Made by a program: the position numbers
Part shown: positions 3,001 to 6,000 of the stretch, piece after piece
How positions within the stretch are numbered: the stretch's first letter is position 1
Layout: each line of letters opens with the position of its first letter
Virus record (IMG/VR): IMGVR_UViG_2713896777_000003
Length of the DNA stretch: 7,603 bases
Direction: 5' to 3' (one strand)
Origin: a virus
Taxonomy: Duplodnaviria; Heunggongvirae; Uroviricota; Caudoviricetes

Positions 3001-6000
3001 ATTCACTCGTTGGAATGAATACACAGTGCAGTGTTTATTCGTATGCCTGTCTTTTAACCACATCAGGCTCGGTGGTTCTCGTGTACCCCTACAGCGAGAA
3101 ATCGGATAAACTCTATTCACCCCTACAGAGAGAATGATGGAGATTCACCGATGAGTAACTGGTGGCAGGAACTATTACGTTTCTTCCTGCGTGGTCTTAC
3201 GCTACAACAGTTAATTCATATGCTTATTATTTTAATTGCCTTGATAATAATCACCCCAGCATCAATTAAAGAGTGGGTAGATATAAGGAACCCCGAAATA
3301 CTTCCAGATCACTGGATGTATTACGCAATGCTTTTGTGTATCAGTTATGTTCTGAACAGGGGGATGGAGTTTATATTTCTGGCATCTTCAGACAGATATA
3401 AAAAATATCTCAGTAAGAGAGATGAGGCTAAAGTAATTGTGGAGACTGAGCGCCTATTCAATTCTCTGAGTATTCAGGAAAAAGAGGTTTTAGCATTTGC
3501 TGTTATGGCAAATAACAAAATCGTACTTAAGCACGGCGATCCGGTCGCTTTATCTCTTATGAGAAAAGGCCTTCTCCATCGCTCAGGTGTGACTTACAGC
3601 GCGTCAGGTAAAGAGAAATTTGTTATACCTGACGTCTGGTTCCATGAGTGTTATATGCGCTTTGCTGGTAAAGCTGATGAGCTAATTTAGTTCCTCTACG
3701 GCGGGGGGGATCGTCACCTCGCTGTCAGTTGTTTTGATTTCCGGTAGCCTGCCGCGTAAATGGCTACGTTTGGAAGACAAGTTGAACCTTCATATTTTCT
3801 GGTCAACGTTGTCAGAGTTATAACTTCTGCTCTCATTGCTGGTTTGCGCTTGCATTGCAAGACCACTCGTGAAGGGGTTGGCCTGTGTAGCTTGTCGGAG
3901 CTAATCGCCTCCTGACTTTGCAGGTTTGCGCGACGAGCTCTACGGCGAGAAGCTGCGGTGCCTTTAAATTCTGTTTTTCTGGACATAGATTCCTCCCGAA
4001 TAAACTTTGGCGATGCAATCTCGAAGCTCCTCCTGAGACGGTTACTTCGGCATTGCATCCCACAGCTTATGTGGTTGGGTGATCTGGCTTTTCAGCCACG
4101 TAGTCGAGTGTTCGACGTTGTTTAAAGAGCCTGCCAGTCTGCTCCGTTTGGCTTACAGCGTCCTGCTGATGAGTTGACTTTATCGAAATGATAAACTGAT
4201 GGCAATAGCAAAATGATAAATTGTTTGGGTTTTCAAATATCCTGTTGATTATTATGGTTTTTTATTTGATTGCGGGAATTTATCAGAAGGAATGAAGAGA
4301 CTTGAGGGGGATCAGAATTTCGTGGTTTAGAAAGTTGTATCTATCAATTTTTCAATAAATACAATTGGTTAAGGTGTTATTAGGTGTGGGGATCGTGAGG
4401 CAAAGAAAACCCGGCGCTGAGGCCGGGTTCTGTCATCTAACTTAAGTATCAAGCCGCTTTTTGTGAATGATTGATGTGAGCTTCAAAGTCGCGGCGTAGA
4501 TTTTGAACGCGCTCTACACATCCGCGCATTTCAGCCAAAAGCTTACTAACGGCAGTATAGTCAAACGCTTTAGTCATTTTTTTTCCCCTCGTTTAAATGT
4601 AAGGCTCAACATCAAGGGCTGCTATTGCTGCGCACAATGCGTCAGGATCGTCAGCATCGATGGCTTGAGCCAGGTCATTAGCCAGTATAAGTAACTTATC
4701 GATGACAGCGATTTCGCTGGTCTTATCTACACGAAAGTATGGGAGCAGAGCATTACATACGTCTCTGAATGTCCGTAATTCTGCGACAACGTTCGAAAAG
4801 GTAGGATCTTTCTTACGAAGATCCACCAATGGCGCTACTTTAGCTGTTTTCAGCATTGCACTAATCTCGCCAATCATTGTTCCATGCAGACGATTAAATT
4901 CATCAACAGCTCGGTCATGCAAGCTCTTGTTGATTGGCAATACGTTTTGGGTCACTAACTATACTCCTTATATAGGTGTTCGCCAACAGATTTTCAATAT
5001 GACTTGGGCGATTTCTGAACAATAAGCACGATTTAGCAATGATTAATTGATGTTAAGCACAAATATCTCTACATCGTGCATTTTTAACTATTTATACACA
5101 TAAAATCTAATAAATGGATATAAACCTTATGATGATTTTTCTCAATCGAATTGAATAATGATCTCTATCACATCACCCAAACGTCTCTTCAGGCCACTGG
5201 TTACCAGCTATGTGACGATGAAGTCACGAACTTTTCAGCCACTCCCTTGCCTCGATGTCATCCAGATGGCGAGATTGCTTCAGAATACCAGCCACATACT
5301 CCACCTTTGCTACTTGATGATAAGGCAACGTTATTGGCCTGTGGTCCTGGTTGATGCTTGTAAATTGGTATTCTCCATCTCTGTCATAGCCAAGAACTTT
5401 GATCATGTTGTGTCCTTCAACAGTTCTGACAAACACCTCATCCCCCGGGAATACTTTGGTGTTAGGCTCAATGAGTACATATTCTCCTGATTTTATTCTG
5501 GGCCACATGCTGTCTCCTTTCACACGAAGACCAAAGGCATCTGGATCATCGCTATAAATATTGAGCCACCCATCGCGCTCTTCGGTCATCTCGATGGCAC
5601 CATCAACACCAAGAATTGCCTCACCAACCACGCGCACTAACCCTTTTCTTACCTGACCGACAAAAGTTAAAGAATCTGAGCATGATGCAATTGGTGTTAC
5701 ATCATGTACCAAATCAAGCCACCCATTAGGTAACCCAAGTGCGGCTTCGAATTTTCTTGCTAGTTTATCCCCTATGTTTCGAGTGCTTTTTTCACCGGAG
5801 ACTTGCGTGAGTTGAGAAGGGCTAACTCCAAGCTTATCGGCAAAGCTTGCATTAGTGTTACCCGCGATTTTTTTATGCTCATCTAGCAAAAACGCCAGAT
5901 TCGATTTGCGAATATCTTTGTTTTCCATCCCACGATTCTCCCTCTATTTAGCAAATGGATAAATATGCATTTTGATAAATCTTCATTGCGTTTTATTTAT

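What the first reader, a model, noticed from the sequence alone, without database searches (positions are those of the whole stretch)
4956..5223. Unusually long (268 bp) AT-rich spacer between cI and the cassette, with a candidate internal promoter
In lambda, rexA follows cI almost directly. Here a 268-bp AT-rich non-coding stretch separates the cI stop from ORF120. On the minus strand TTGAAA (revcomp of 4992-4997), 17 nt, TATATA (4969-4974) forms a promoter-like pair, but the predicted start would fall at or inside the ORF120 Shine-Dalgarno, so its use is uncertain. The spacer could hold a cassette-specific promoter (as with lambda pLIT), a regulatory RNA, or a recombination scar marking where the cargo was acquired.
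Basis: seen in the sequence. Interest (0 to 1): 0.45.

Follow-up and report, generated by a model that had tools for sequence, protein, structure and literature searches.

The report
Recombination scar plus cargo cassette's promoter leader
The long AT-rich gap after the prophage repressor gene is partly a leftover fragment of another repressor gene, marking where cargo genes are swapped, and partly an upstream control region that travels with the two cargo genes; this is an ordinary kind of phage mosaic with a few unusual promoter details.

Summary

The spacer has two parts.

1. 5173-5223 belongs to the cI module. It holds a fossil 3' end of a lambda-type cI (IAGNQWPEETFG*). Prophages with this cI allele but other cargo (HigBA, DUF3024, AU5Stx1) diverge 0-2 nt after the fossil stop codon. 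This part is a recombination scar.

2. 4956-5172 (29% GC) belongs to the ORF120-ORF42 cassette. It travels with the cassette behind about 15 different repressor alleles and in several contexts with no upstream repressor. The gap there is always at least 200 nt.

The last 45 nt are more conserved than the protein. They hold two overlapping sigma70-like promoters:
- a stronger one, TTGGCG-17-TATAGT, whose -10 lies between the Shine-Dalgarno and the start codon.

Many relatives also have a near-consensus sigma28 (FliA) promoter about 145 nt upstream. In this window it has decayed.

I found no RNA family, stable structure, cI operator or coding remnant. Promoter activity is inferred, not shown. 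In this lysogen, read-through from PRM probably supplies the translatable ORF120 message.

The parts
5224..5928 (-). cI repressor gene (context; defines the upstream edge of the spacer)
   Evidence: 234-aa ORF with Peptidase_S24 (E 3.8e-16) plus a weak HTH_3 hit. RefSeq: LexA family regulator WP_000428099.1.
5173..5223 (-). Tail of the cI module. 12 nt of linker, then a 39-nt fossil 3' end of a lambda-type cI gene (5211-5173, IAGNQWPEETFG*), in frame with the present cI stop.
   Evidence: Translates to LHRHIAGNQWPEETFG*; lambda CI ends ...VIASQWPEETFG*. The last 27 nt differ from lambda at one base. The segment is almost identical (two differences, both in AU5Stx1) in prophages with the same cI allele but HigBA, DUF3024 or AU5Stx1-type cargo. 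It is present without the cassette in about 300 E. coli records.
5170..5173 (.). Mosaic joint between the cI module and the cargo cassette, at the fossil stop codon
   Evidence: The four-way alignment is almost identical up to GGGTGA and unrelated 0-2 nt after it. In L028, L005 and L006 an intact lambda-type cI stop abuts the same leader.
4956..5172 (-). 217-nt AT-rich 5' leader that belongs to the ORF120-ORF42 cassette
   Evidence: 29% GC, the lowest in the window. At least 99.9% identical together with the cassette in 89 E. coli genomes. Homologous leader upstream of the cassette in Citrobacter, Enterobacter, Serratia, Hafnia and Pantoea, behind different repressors and in contexts with no upstream repressor.
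5122..5129 (-). TAAGGTTT: -35-like half of a decayed sigma28 (FliA)-type promoter
   Evidence: Aligned with TAAAGTTT / TAAAGGTT / TAAAGATT in relatives. Consensus TAAAGTTT-n11-GCCGATAA from PMC2859248.
5103..5110 (-). TTAGATTT: decayed -10 half of the sigma28-type promoter (GCCGATAA in the consensus; GCC replaced by TTA here)
   Evidence: At the homologous position relatives have GCCGATTA/GCCGATAT/GCCGATTT, 1-4 mismatches of 16 overall, and 0/300 shuffles reach <=2 mismatches. The window site has 6 mismatches and lacks the C of CGA. Nearly all the E. coli FliA-bound sites shown in the part of Table 2 of PMC4183435 that I read keep (C)CGAT.
4992..4997 (-).
   Evidence: TTGAAA/TTGTAA/TTGCAA/TTGAAT at the same distance from the start codon in the compact enterobacterial lineages.
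4969..4974 (-). TATATA: -10 of P_a (weak: A at the last position); overlaps the Shine-Dalgarno by 1 nt
   Evidence: Aligned with TATATA/CATATA/CATGTA/CATATT/TATACA. A at the second position is invariant. PWM score 5.6.
4981..4986 (-). TTGGCG: -35 of the overlapping, stronger sigma70-like promoter (P_b)
   Evidence: Found by the consensus scan at 9/12 matches. The TTG is kept in all compact lineages, with the spacer 17 or 16 nt.
4958..4963 (-). TATAGT: -10 of P_b, lying between the Shine-Dalgarno and the GTG start codon
   Evidence: TATAGT/TATAAT/TATGAT/TATATT in relatives; only the two least critical positions vary. It is the top PWM hit in 14 of the 15 compact lineages scanned and a near-tie second in the other. 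The same module (TTGATT-16-TATAAT) lies 58 nt upstream of a relocated ATG in the Yersinia-type lineage.
4964..4969 (-). AAGGAG Shine-Dalgarno of ORF120 (GTG start at 4955-4953)
   Evidence: Read. The segment -16..+12 is identical even in a homologue with 49% protein identity (L038).
4593..4955 (-). ORF120, first cassette gene (function unknown)
   Evidence: PHROG 13858, unknown function. No Pfam, PADLOC, NCBIfam or PDB sequence hit. AF2 model is a helical bundle, pLDDT 86, with no significant fold match.
4449..4577 (-). ORF42, second cassette gene with its own GAGGGG ribosome-binding site (function unknown)
   Evidence: PHROG 12503. A 42-55-aa partner ending in KAA follows the ORF120 homologue in most relatives examined, but not in L041 or L052.
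4402..4428 (-). Intrinsic terminator shared by all cargo variants (backbone, tIMM-like); left limit of the cargo
   Evidence: ACCCGGC-loop-GCCGGGT followed by TTTCTTT, read. Conserved in the AU5Stx1, HigBA and DUF3024 prophages, while the sequence just upstream of it is unrelated.

Best explanation
The spacer is a composite of two modules joined at a recombination hot spot.

(a) The 51 nt next to cI (5173-5223) are the tail of the repressor module. They contain the last 12 codons and the stop of a different, lambda-type cI allele. This short sequence (CAGTGGCCTGARGAGACGTTTGGNTGA) is shared by many repressor alleles. It is the point where cargo between cI and N is exchanged, so it is a scar of past allele and cargo replacement. 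This step is shown by alignment.

(b) The other 217 nt (4956-5172) are the 5' leader of the ORF120-ORF42 cassette and move with it. They are regulatory DNA, not RNA structure or coding remnant. Ancestrally the leader carried a sigma28 (FliA) promoter about 145 nt upstream of the start. That promoter would give an mRNA with a leader of about 135-140 nt that still contains the Shine-Dalgarno. The leader also carries a tandem sigma70-type promoter module packed into the last 45 nt.

In this E. coli lineage the sigma28 -10 has lost its critical bases, so it is probably inactive. This is inferred. ORF120 and ORF42 are then most likely translated from PRM read-through, as with lambda cI-rexAB and BTP1 cI-bstA: there is no terminator in the spacer, and the RNA has more G than C, which makes it a poor Rho-loading substrate.

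The conserved sigma70 module (P_a, TTGAAA-17-TATATA; P_b, TTGGCG-17-TATAGT) probably fires independently of cI. Its predicted starts are about -7 and about +4/+5 relative to the GTG. Its transcripts would therefore lack a usable ORF120 initiation region and could express only ORF42. That makes it functionally like lambda pLIT, which makes rexB alone. This last step is inference.
For: Scar:
- Translation of 5173-5223 and comparison with lambda.
- A sharp divergence 0-2 nt after the fossil stop in four cargo types.
- The fossil flank occurs without the cassette in about 300 of 386 matching E. coli records.
- An intact lambda-type cI stop abuts the same leader in L028, L005 and L006.
- Further fossil cI ends at the same place in L007 and L015.

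The leader belongs to the cassette:
- Upstream ORFs fall into 17 clusters (70% identity), about 15 of them S24 repressor alleles, with gaps of 200-441 nt where the repressor is the adjacent gene.
- Cassette copies with no co-oriented upstream gene also occur: L008 (775-nt gap, own terminator), L055, and Vibrio L053/L054 beside fur.

Selection on the leader:
- The -45..-1 segment is 56-84% identical to the window in lineages where the last 60 residues are 38-48% identical and third codon positions are 28-38% identical. The -90..-46 segment falls to 27-49%.

Promoters:
- P_b is the top PWM hit in 14 of the 15 compact lineages scanned and a near-tie second in the other. Only the two least critical -10 positions vary, and the -35 TTG shifts by 1 nt to keep a 16/17-nt spacer.
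- In the Yersinia-type lineage the module is kept as TTGATT-16-TATAAT, although the embedded Shine-Dalgarno (AAAGAG) and start (TTG) are degraded and the real ATG lies 58 nt downstream.
- Xenorhabdus has TTGTCA-16-TATAAT.

Sigma28:
- 1-4 mismatches to TAAAGTTT-n11-GCCGATAA at the same aligned position in 10 lineages, with 0/300 shuffles reaching <=2 mismatches.
- Consensus and the effect of -10 mutations: PMC2859248. Experimentally bound sites: PMC4183435.

Read-through:
- No terminator-like site in the spacer.
- Leader RNA has 36 G and 27 C.
- Precedent: cI-bstA is transcribed from one start across an 88-bp gap (PMC7067206).
Against: - No transcription data exist for this locus, so every promoter is a prediction.
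- Neither sigma70-like promoter can give a Shine-Dalgarno-led ORF120 mRNA in the compact arrangement. Their purpose there is unexplained.
- The ORF42-only idea does not hold for the Yersinia-type lineage, where the same module would drive both genes.
- P_b's conservation is confounded by overlapping constraints: Shine-Dalgarno, start codon and codons 2-3.
- The sigma28 site is absent from 7 enterobacterial lineages and is degenerate in the window, so it does not explain why the leader is kept here.
- Part of the leader's conservation among close lineages may be recent common descent or recombination. L052 has a lineage-C leader on a distant ORF allele.
- The PWM I used was built from textbook frequencies recalled from memory.
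Confidence: 0.7

Rival explanations
1. Passive filler. The leader is AT-rich DNA with no function of its own, carried along with the horizontally acquired cassette. ORF120-ORF42 are expressed only as the distal part of the PRM-cI operon. The conserved last 45 nt reflect only translation-initiation constraints and recent shared ancestry.
For: No terminator lies between cI and ORF120. cI-bstA and cI-rexAB are precedents for pure co-transcription. The distal half of the leader is barely above random identity in far lineages. The window's sigma28 site is decayed. The promoter-like count in the region is not above shuffles.
Against: The core is more conserved than first and second codon positions in distant homologues. 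The spacer between a Shine-Dalgarno and a start codon is normally free to vary, yet here it keeps TATnnT. The -35 TTG is kept through a compensating 1-nt shift. The module survives with consensus TATAAT where its embedded Shine-Dalgarno and start have decayed. Copies with no upstream co-oriented gene must have their own promoter.
Confidence: 0.15
2. Operator or silencing region. The conserved core (direct TTG repeats 11 bp apart, palindrome CTATA-N7-TATAG around the Shine-Dalgarno) is the binding site of a cassette-encoded or host regulator. Alternatively, the 29%-GC leader is an H-NS nucleation site that keeps the cassette silent.
For: The palindrome CTATAT-AAGGA-GTATAG is nearly invariant. 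GC is very low. The two -35-like and two -10-like elements are each one helical turn apart (read).
Against: ORF120 is a plain helical bundle with no DNA-binding fold or family hit, and ORF42 is a 42-aa protein with no family hit. The outer palindrome positions are not maintained in several lineages. No cI operator (TTTATC-N5-GATAAA, up to 3 mismatches) lies in the spacer. H-NS binding cannot be tested here.
Confidence: 0.1
3. Regulatory RNA. The spacer encodes an sRNA or antisense RNA, or is a structured cis-acting mRNA leader (thermometer, riboswitch or processing site) that controls ORF120 translation.
For: The leader is long and conserved. A small hairpin could present the Shine-Dalgarno in its loop (CUAUAU-AAGGA-GUAUAG), and GGAGU could pair with ACCC of codons 2-3.
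Against: No Rfam match in the spacer even at E<=10. Folding energy is indistinguishable from shuffles on either strand, z = -0.48 and -0.89. RNAalifold consensus energy is only -0.5 to -1.5 kcal/mol with no compensatory pairs. The 7-bp inverted repeats found are about what chance gives in 300 AT-rich bases. No terminator is available to end an sRNA.
Confidence: 0.04
4. Degraded gene or small protein. The spacer is the remains of a gene that once lay between cI and ORF120, or it encodes an unannotated micro-protein.
For: The first 51 nt really are a gene remnant. One Hafnia relative (L010) has an extra 110-aa ORF between cI and the cassette.
Against: The leader has 3-8 stops in every frame, and the longest open stretch is 32 codons. 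The longest ORFs with a start codon are 12-23 codons and lack ribosome-binding sites. Indels between lineages are 1, 2 and 4 nt. No gene is called in the leader in any relative, and the extra L010 ORF lies upstream of a full 268-nt leader.
Confidence: 0.02

Closest known systems
Lambda cI-rexA-rexB operon with PRM, the internal promoter pLIT and terminator tIMM
   Same: Same position (between cI and pL/N), same orientation, a two-gene accessory cassette, a non-coding gap after cI (112 nt in lambda) and a terminator before pL. There is a second promoter predicted to express only the distal gene. That pLIT makes rexB alone is from my own knowledge of the lambda literature.
   Different: The proteins are unrelated to RexA/RexB (no Pfam or PADLOC hit). 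The candidate internal promoter sits on the translation-initiation region of the first gene rather than near its 3' end. The leader is twice as long and carries a second, sigma28-type promoter in relatives. No transcript data exist.
cI-bstA operon of Salmonella prophage BTP1, and the general cI-N accessory ('moron') hot spot of lambdoid phages
   Same: A cargo gene immediately downstream of the repressor, in a region described as highly mosaic and a common site of accessory loci (PMC7067206; PMC5322425). Cargo here is swapped at sharp junctions.
   Different: bstA is transcribed from the cI promoter only, across an 88-bp gap. Here the gap is 268 nt and carries conserved promoter-like elements of its own. 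No defence function is known for ORF120/ORF42.
flxA of the E. coli Qin prophage, a FliA (sigma28)-dependent gene of a lambdoid prophage with no role in motility
   Same: A prophage accessory gene preceded by a sigma28 promoter. flxA has TAAAGATT-N11-GCCGATAG and 140-fold FliA dependence (PMC4183435 Table 2). Relatives of this cassette have equally good sites at a fixed position.
   Different: ORF120 is not a FlxA homologue (no Pfam hit). FliA dependence is untested for any member. In this window the site has decayed (6 of 16 mismatches, C of CGA lost).
Mosaic boundary ('linker') sequences of lambdoid phages: short conserved stretches at gene ends where modules recombine
   Same: A conserved stretch of about 27 nt at the end of many cI alleles coincides exactly with the cargo junction. 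Fossil copies of it accumulate there (window, L007, L015).
   Different: Here the linker is itself the coding 3' end of the repressor. It has been left behind as a non-coding fossil after allele replacement. I did not read the primary literature on such boundaries (Degnan et al. 2007 is cited in PMC7067206).

Membership tests
Accessory (moron) cassette at the cI-N hot spot of lambdoid prophages | Lies between the repressor gene and pL/N, in the repressor's orientation | tested here: met
   cI 5224-5928(-), cassette 4449-4955(-), OL operators 4179-4220, N 3714-4058(-).
Accessory (moron) cassette at the cI-N hot spot of lambdoid prophages | Replaced by unrelated genes in otherwise homologous phages, with sharp junctions | tested here: met
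   HigBA, DUF3024/DUF6978/DUF1828 and AU5Stx1 ORF47 occupy the same slot. Junctions are at the fossil cI stop and at the shared terminator.
Accessory (moron) cassette at the cI-N hot spot of lambdoid prophages | Own promoter and own terminator (autonomous transcription unit) | tested here: inconclusive
   Conserved promoter-like elements travel with the cassette. The copy in L008 has its own terminator. In the window the terminator belongs to the backbone. No transcript data exist.
Sigma70 promoter | -35 and -10 hexamers close to TTGACA/TATAAT, 16-18 nt apart | tested here: met
   P_b TTGGCG-17-TATAGT is 9/12 and passes the scan. P_a TTGAAA-17-TATATA is 9/12 but lacks T at the last -10 position and does not pass.
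Sigma70 promoter | Key positions and spacing conserved in diverged relatives | tested here: met
   P_b is the top PWM hit at the same position in 14 of 15 compact lineages and a near-tie second in the other. It is retained 58 nt upstream of the start in the Yersinia type. The P_a -35 is invariant TTGNAA.
Sigma70 promoter | A transcription start about 7 nt downstream of the -10 | not testable with these tools
   Needs 5'-end mapping. Predicted starts are about 4962 (P_a) and about 4951-4952 (P_b).
Sigma28 (FliA) promoter | TAAAGTTT-N11-GCCGATAA with the CGA core of the -10 intact | tested here: not met
   The window has TAAGGTTT-N11-TTAGATTT (5129-5103), 6 of 16 mismatches, with the C of CGA lost. 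282/300 shuffles do as well. Relatives (L008, L039, L041, L051, L052) meet it with 1-2 mismatches and 0/300 shuffles.
Lambda pLIT-type internal promoter (expresses only the distal cassette gene) | Transcript that starts downstream of the first gene's initiation codon and covers the second gene | not testable with these tools
   Only the geometry is known: the P_b -10 ends 2 nt before the GTG, and ORF42 has its own GAGGGG ribosome-binding site.
Known or structured regulatory RNA | Match to an Rfam family, or folding energy or covariation above background | tested here: not met
   No Rfam hit in 4956-5223 at E<=10. z = -0.48 and -0.89. No compensatory pairs.
cI operator site | Match to this phage's operator TTTATC-N5-GATAAA | tested here: not met
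   14 matches at up to 3 mismatches in the window, including OL (4179, 4204) and OR (5947, 5996, 6014). None falls in 4956-5223.

The most novel reading that the evidence does not exclude
The ORF120-ORF42 cassette is a dual-sigma accessory module. A FliA (sigma28) promoter makes the full two-gene mRNA only when the flagellar regulon is on, or PRM does so in lysogens where that promoter has decayed. A constitutive sigma70 promoter is built into the ribosome-binding site of ORF120, with its -10 between the Shine-Dalgarno and the start codon. It makes transcripts that cannot initiate ORF120 and so supply only ORF42. This would set an effector-to-antidote ratio, as the rexA:rexB ratio is set by pLIT, and would tie a prophage function (for example exclusion of flagellotropic phages) to motility.
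Probability: 0.15. Interest if true: 0.6.

Novelty: new member of a known kind. Interest (0 to 1): 0.4.

Why it matters
The cI-N slot of lambdoid prophages is where exclusion and defence genes such as rexAB and bstA sit. How its cargo is exchanged and expressed decides what a lysogen gains.

This locus gives a clean example of both processes:
- **Exchange:** it happens at the conserved last codons of cI and leaves fossil gene ends behind.
- **Expression:** the cassette brings its own upstream control region instead of relying only on PRM.

It also defines an uncharacterised two-gene family found from E. coli to Vibrio. Its upstream DNA is better conserved than its proteins, and many members carry a textbook FliA promoter. 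That gives a concrete handle for finding out what the cassette does: test motility-linked expression and flagellotropic-phage resistance.

The STEC lineage in this window appears to have lost the FliA input.

Tried and rejected
- **Rfam on the whole window at E<=10.** Nothing in the spacer. The snoRNA hits at 7127-7258 are the ori iterons, and the sroD hit at 4402-4496 is the terminator.
- **Single-sequence folding of both strands** and RNAalifold on 12 and 9 lineages, both strands. No signal.
- **Inverted repeats**. Window GCACGAT/ATCGTGC and Hafnia GTAAGCA/TGCTTAC looked like a covarying stem. However, the arms are out of register in the alignment, and about 2-3 such 7-mers are expected by chance. 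Dropped.
- **cI operator search**. None in the spacer.
- **Small ORFs and stop density**. No coding potential.
- **ORF120/ORF42 function.** Pfam, PADLOC, NCBIfam and PDB sequence search gave nothing. PHROGs gave only unknown-function families. The AF2 model (pLDDT 86) had no Foldseek PDB match better than E = 0.65.
- **Other sites considered by eye and not pursued.**
  - Fur box at GATTGATGAAAATCATCAT.
  - LexA box at CTAT-N9-ATAG (wrong spacing and bases).
  - CRP and IHF sites (poor matches).
  - Sigma32 reading of CTTGAAA-N14-CCATAT. It fits only some lineages and predicts the same start site as P_a.
  - An antisense promoter using TATACT on the plus strand (no conserved -35).
  - An upstream sigma70 promoter at about -85 (TTGCTA-17-AGAAAT), which is weak in the window and has no conserved -10.
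- **Pattern scan of viral contigs for the core ATAWAGGAGTATARTTA**. Uninformative.
- **Literature.** No paper mentions WP_000193240 or WP_000158654. I had recalled that bstA has its own promoter. The paper says it is co-transcribed with cI, so I corrected that.
- **H-19B.** I suspected the window was the Stx1 phage H-19B. In strain H19 the cassette-bearing prophage sits next to ybhC and has no stx gene between Q and the lysis genes, so I do not claim that.

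
Full report
**Setting**

The window is the immunity and early region of a lambdoid prophage. Its genes are:
- erf, kil, cIII and a TolA-like pseudogene;
- sieB (3151-3690, +);
- N (3714-4058, -);
- the OL operators;
- a terminator;
- ORF42 (4449-4577, -) and ORF120 (4593-4955, -);
- the spacer;
- cI (5224-5928, -);
- OR, cro, cII, O.

The same prophage region, identical over the spacer and cassette, occurs in E. coli O103, O26 and O111 strains.

**Check of the observation**

- The spacer runs exactly from the base after the GTG of ORF120 (4955) to the base before the cI stop codon (5224-5226), 268 nt. 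RefSeq annotates nothing in it.
- It is 33% GC against 44% for the window. The stretch 4956-5172 is 29% GC, the lowest 217-nt stretch in the window.
- TTGAAA (4997-4992), a 17-nt spacer and TATATA (4974-4969) are there on the minus strand.
- The hexamer pair alone is not more than chance. The consensus scan found fewer sites in 4000-6100 than in shuffles. It did not accept this pair because the -10 ends in A. It did report the neighbouring TTGGCG-17-TATAGT at 4986-4958.
- Other cargo behind this same cI allele has gaps of 60 nt (DUF3024), 136 nt (HigB) and 330 nt (AU5Stx1).

**The cI-proximal 51 nt are a recombination scar**

A search of complete E. coli genomes with the spacer found 386 records. 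Only 90 of them (89 genomes) contain the whole spacer. The rest match only its last 50-60 nt, next to cI.

I aligned four prophages that share this cI allele but carry different cargo. They are almost identical through ...GACGTTTGGGTGA and unrelated from 0-2 nt after it.

That shared segment translates, in frame with cI, as LHRHIAGNQWPEETFG*. Lambda CI ends ...VIASQWPEETFG*, and the last 27 nt differ from lambda at one base.

The present cI already has its own C-terminus (...VAGILKQSRHLDDIEAREWLKSS*). So the segment is a left-over 3' end of another, lambda-type allele.

In L028, an IMG/VR contig with a 96%-identical ORF120, an intact lambda-type cI ends with this sequence and its stop codon abuts the same leader. 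The same holds in Citrobacter L005 and L006. L007 and L015 also carry fossil copies of a cI end at this junction.

On the other side, the cargo ends just before a terminator that all cargo variants share.

The literature already describes the repressor-to-N interval as highly mosaic and a common site for accessory genes (PMC7067206). So the cargo in this window is about 4433-5172, and the 'scar' reading is right for 5173-5223.

**The remaining 217 nt belong to the cassette**

ORF120 has a small family of homologues. In most places I could fetch, a 117-131-aa homologue is followed by a 42-55-aa partner; none is evident in L041 or L052. Every copy is preceded by at least 200 nt without a called gene.
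- Gaps of 200-441 nt lie behind S24 repressors. The upstream ORFs fall into 17 clusters at 70% identity, about 15 of them repressor alleles.
- Longer gaps occur in contexts with no upstream repressor:
  - Pantoea agglomerans L008, beside a host transporter gene, 775 nt, with its own terminator;
  - L040, L051 and L052;
  - Xenorhabdus L055;
  - two Vibrio prophages where the cassette lies beside the divergently oriented host fur gene.

The upstream DNA is homologous across Citrobacter, Enterobacter, Serratia, Hafnia and Pantoea. Within E. coli it is at least 99.9% identical in 89 genomes, so E. coli itself gives no information on selection.

**It is not coding and not a structured RNA**

- Every frame of the leader has 3-8 stops. 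The longest ORFs with a start codon are 12-23 codons and have no ribosome-binding site. Indels between lineages are 1, 2 and 4 nt.
- Rfam finds nothing in the spacer even at E<=10.
- Folding energies equal those of shuffles on both strands, z = -0.48 and -0.89.
- RNAalifold finds only a 6-bp AU hairpin around the Shine-Dalgarno, with no compensatory change.
- No operator of this phage's cI lies in it.

**What is conserved**

Conservation is concentrated in the last 45 nt before the start codon.

| Measure, window vs distant homologues | Identity |
|---|---|
| Last 60 residues of the protein | 38-48% |
| Third codon positions | 28-38% |
| First and second codon positions | 59-65% |
| Leader -45..-1 | 56-78% |
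| Leader -90..-46 | 27-49% |

In L038 (49% protein identity) the 16 nt available upstream are identical to the window.

The conserved pattern is TTGWAA, 8-9 nt, TTGNNN, then C(Y)AT(R)T-AAGGAG-TAT(NN)T-TW-GTG. Read as sigma70 elements, it contains two promoters offset by 11 bp.
It has an invariant -35 and a weak -10.
- **P_b** is TTGGCG-17-TATAGT. With a simple PWM it is the best site in 14 of the 15 compact lineages scanned and a near-tie second in the other.
  - Its -10 varies only at the two least critical positions (TATAGT, TATAAT, TATGAT, TATATT).
  - Its -35 TTG shifts by one base, so the spacer is 17 or 16 nt.

Two lineages separate promoter constraint from translation constraint.
- In the Yersinia type (L049, L056, L057) the module reads TTGATT-16-TATAAT. 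Its embedded Shine-Dalgarno has become AAAGAG and its GTG has become TTG. The real ATG lies 58 nt downstream, so there the module is an ordinary promoter with a normal leader.
- In Xenorhabdus the module is TTGTCA-16-TATAAT, with quite different sequence between the elements.

I take this as good, though indirect, evidence that the module is a promoter.

**An unexpected second promoter**

Two further conserved blocks, about 145-175 nt upstream of the start, match the sigma28 (FliA) consensus TAAAGTTT-n11-GCCGATAA (consensus from PMC2859248).

At the same aligned position:

| Lineage | Mismatches of 16 |
|---|---|
| L008 (TAAAGTTT-N11-GCCGATTA) | 1 |
| L039, L041, L051, L052 | 2 |
| L013, L015 | 3 |
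| L005/L006, L040, L047 | 4 |

No shuffle out of 300 reaches 2 mismatches or fewer. These sites are as good as experimentally bound E. coli FliA promoters such as tar, tsr or flxA. flxA is itself a gene of the Qin prophage (PMC4183435 Table 2).

In the window lineage the site reads TAAGGTTT (5129-5122), N11, TTAGATTT (5110-5103). The GCC of the -10 is replaced, including the C of the CGA core. Replacing that core abolished aer promoter activity. The site is therefore probably dead here, and it is also missing in seven other enterobacterial lineages.

**How it most likely works**

*Shown:* the composite structure, the junction, the co-inheritance of the leader with the cassette, and the selection on the core.

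*Inferred:*
- In this lysogen ORF120 and ORF42 are translated from PRM read-through. There is no terminator-like site in the spacer. The leader RNA has more G than C, which is unfavourable for Rho loading. cI-bstA and cI-rexAB are precedents.
- The sigma70 module probably fires on its own. Its predicted starts (about 4962 for P_a, about 4951-4952 for P_b) lie in or after the Shine-Dalgarno and after the start codon. Those transcripts could express only ORF42, which has its own GAGGGG ribosome-binding site.
- This resembles lambda pLIT, which makes rexB alone (my recollection of the lambda literature). I hold it loosely, because it does not apply to the Yersinia-type arrangement.

*Unexplained:* why a near-consensus -10 is kept between a Shine-Dalgarno and a start codon.

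**Rivals**

- Pure filler with PRM-only expression is the main rival. It is weakened by the conservation pattern and by the copies that have no upstream gene.
- An operator or H-NS site cannot be excluded. ORF120 is a plain helical bundle with no DNA-binding signature.
- The RNA and degraded-gene readings are essentially excluded for the leader.

**Novelty and score**

The kind of thing is known: an accessory cassette with its own control region at the cI-N hot spot, and a mosaic joint at a conserved gene end. New here are:
- this cassette family;
- the fossil cI ends that mark the joint;
- the promoter packed into the initiation region;
- the FliA promoter in relatives.

Interest is moderate at 0.4. 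The finding is explained in ordinary terms, and two testable oddities remain.

Noticed in passing
window 4940-5000 (-); relatives L038, L041, L042, L047, L051, L052, L055: The roughly 60 bp around the ORF120 start (TTGWAA...TTG...CYATATAAGGAGTATAGTTAGTGACCCAA) is far better conserved than the protein it precedes. A near-consensus -10 (TATAGT/TATAAT) lies between the Shine-Dalgarno and the start codon, so its predicted transcript would begin inside codon 2. No explanation tested here accounts for this arrangement.
   Followed up: partly
L052:830-1444 versus L015: L052 has a leader about 78% identical to the window and closest to the Enterobacter-type (L015) leader over -90..-1. Its ORF is only 48% identical over the last 60 residues. 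Leader and gene therefore have different histories, which suggests recombination within or near the conserved core.
   Followed up: partly
L053:1252-2523 and L054:1250-2530 (Vibrio lentus, V. cholerae): Distant homologues of the two-gene cassette sit about 750 nt from the divergently oriented host fur gene. They are convergent with an S24 repressor next to Ogr/GpA-type (P2-like) genes. Their upstream DNA is not homologous to the enterobacterial leader. V. cholerae has a TTGTCT-18-TATGAT site about 53 nt upstream of the start.
   Followed up: partly
L007:2695-3000, L015:1150-1290: Two further loci carry a non-coding fossil of a cI 3' end (GGTTGTTGCGATCGTGCTTATGGTGGCCTGATGAGAC...) between the current repressor gene and the cassette leader. 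Repressor-allele replacement in front of a resident cassette has therefore happened repeatedly.
   Followed up: partly
window 4402-4428 (-): The intrinsic terminator (ACCCGGC-CTCAGC-GCCGGGT, then TTTCTTT) after ORF42 is shared by prophages with quite different cargo. It therefore belongs to the phage backbone (tIMM-like), not to the cassette. It is the cause of the weak sroD Rfam hit.
   Followed up: yes
window 4179-4220 and 5947-6030: Operator-like 17-mers TTTATC-N5-GATAAA: a perfect one at 4179-4195 and a weaker one at 4204-4220 (OL); 5947-5963, 5996-6012 and 6014-6030 (OR). 14 matches at up to 3 mismatches against 5.3 expected.
   Followed up: partly
window 6543-6592: A run of 50 N interrupts the cII gene (6414-6746). 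This is masked or missing sequence, not biology.
   Followed up: no
window 7127-7258: Repeats of ATCCCTCAAAACGAGGGA-like units inside the O gene (the ori iterons; annotated as such in AU5Stx1) produce spurious H/ACA snoRNA hits in Rfam.
   Followed up: partly
window 1927-2895 (-): The long charged, Ala/Glu/Lys/Arg-rich ORF (286 aa) is annotated in RefSeq as a TolA-like pseudogene with an internal stop. The stop is visible as ...gcagacTAAattac at about 2836.
   Followed up: no
window 4103-4116: A GTCGAGTGTTCGAC hairpin lies in the N leader, downstream of pL. It was flagged as terminator-like on the plus strand. It could be the boxB of nutL on the minus strand. Not examined.
   Followed up: no
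L010:2400-2732: One Hafnia prophage has an extra 110-aa ORF with no Pfam hit between cI and the cassette. It lies upstream of a full-length (268-nt) leader, which shows that cargo can stack at this slot.
   Followed up: no
L178 (E. coli H19, NZ_AP027165.1 874562-905294): In strain H19 the prophage carrying this cassette is integrated next to ybhC. It has no stx genes between Q and the lysis genes, and an lpxR-like lipid A deacylase gene is inserted in the nin region.
   Followed up: no
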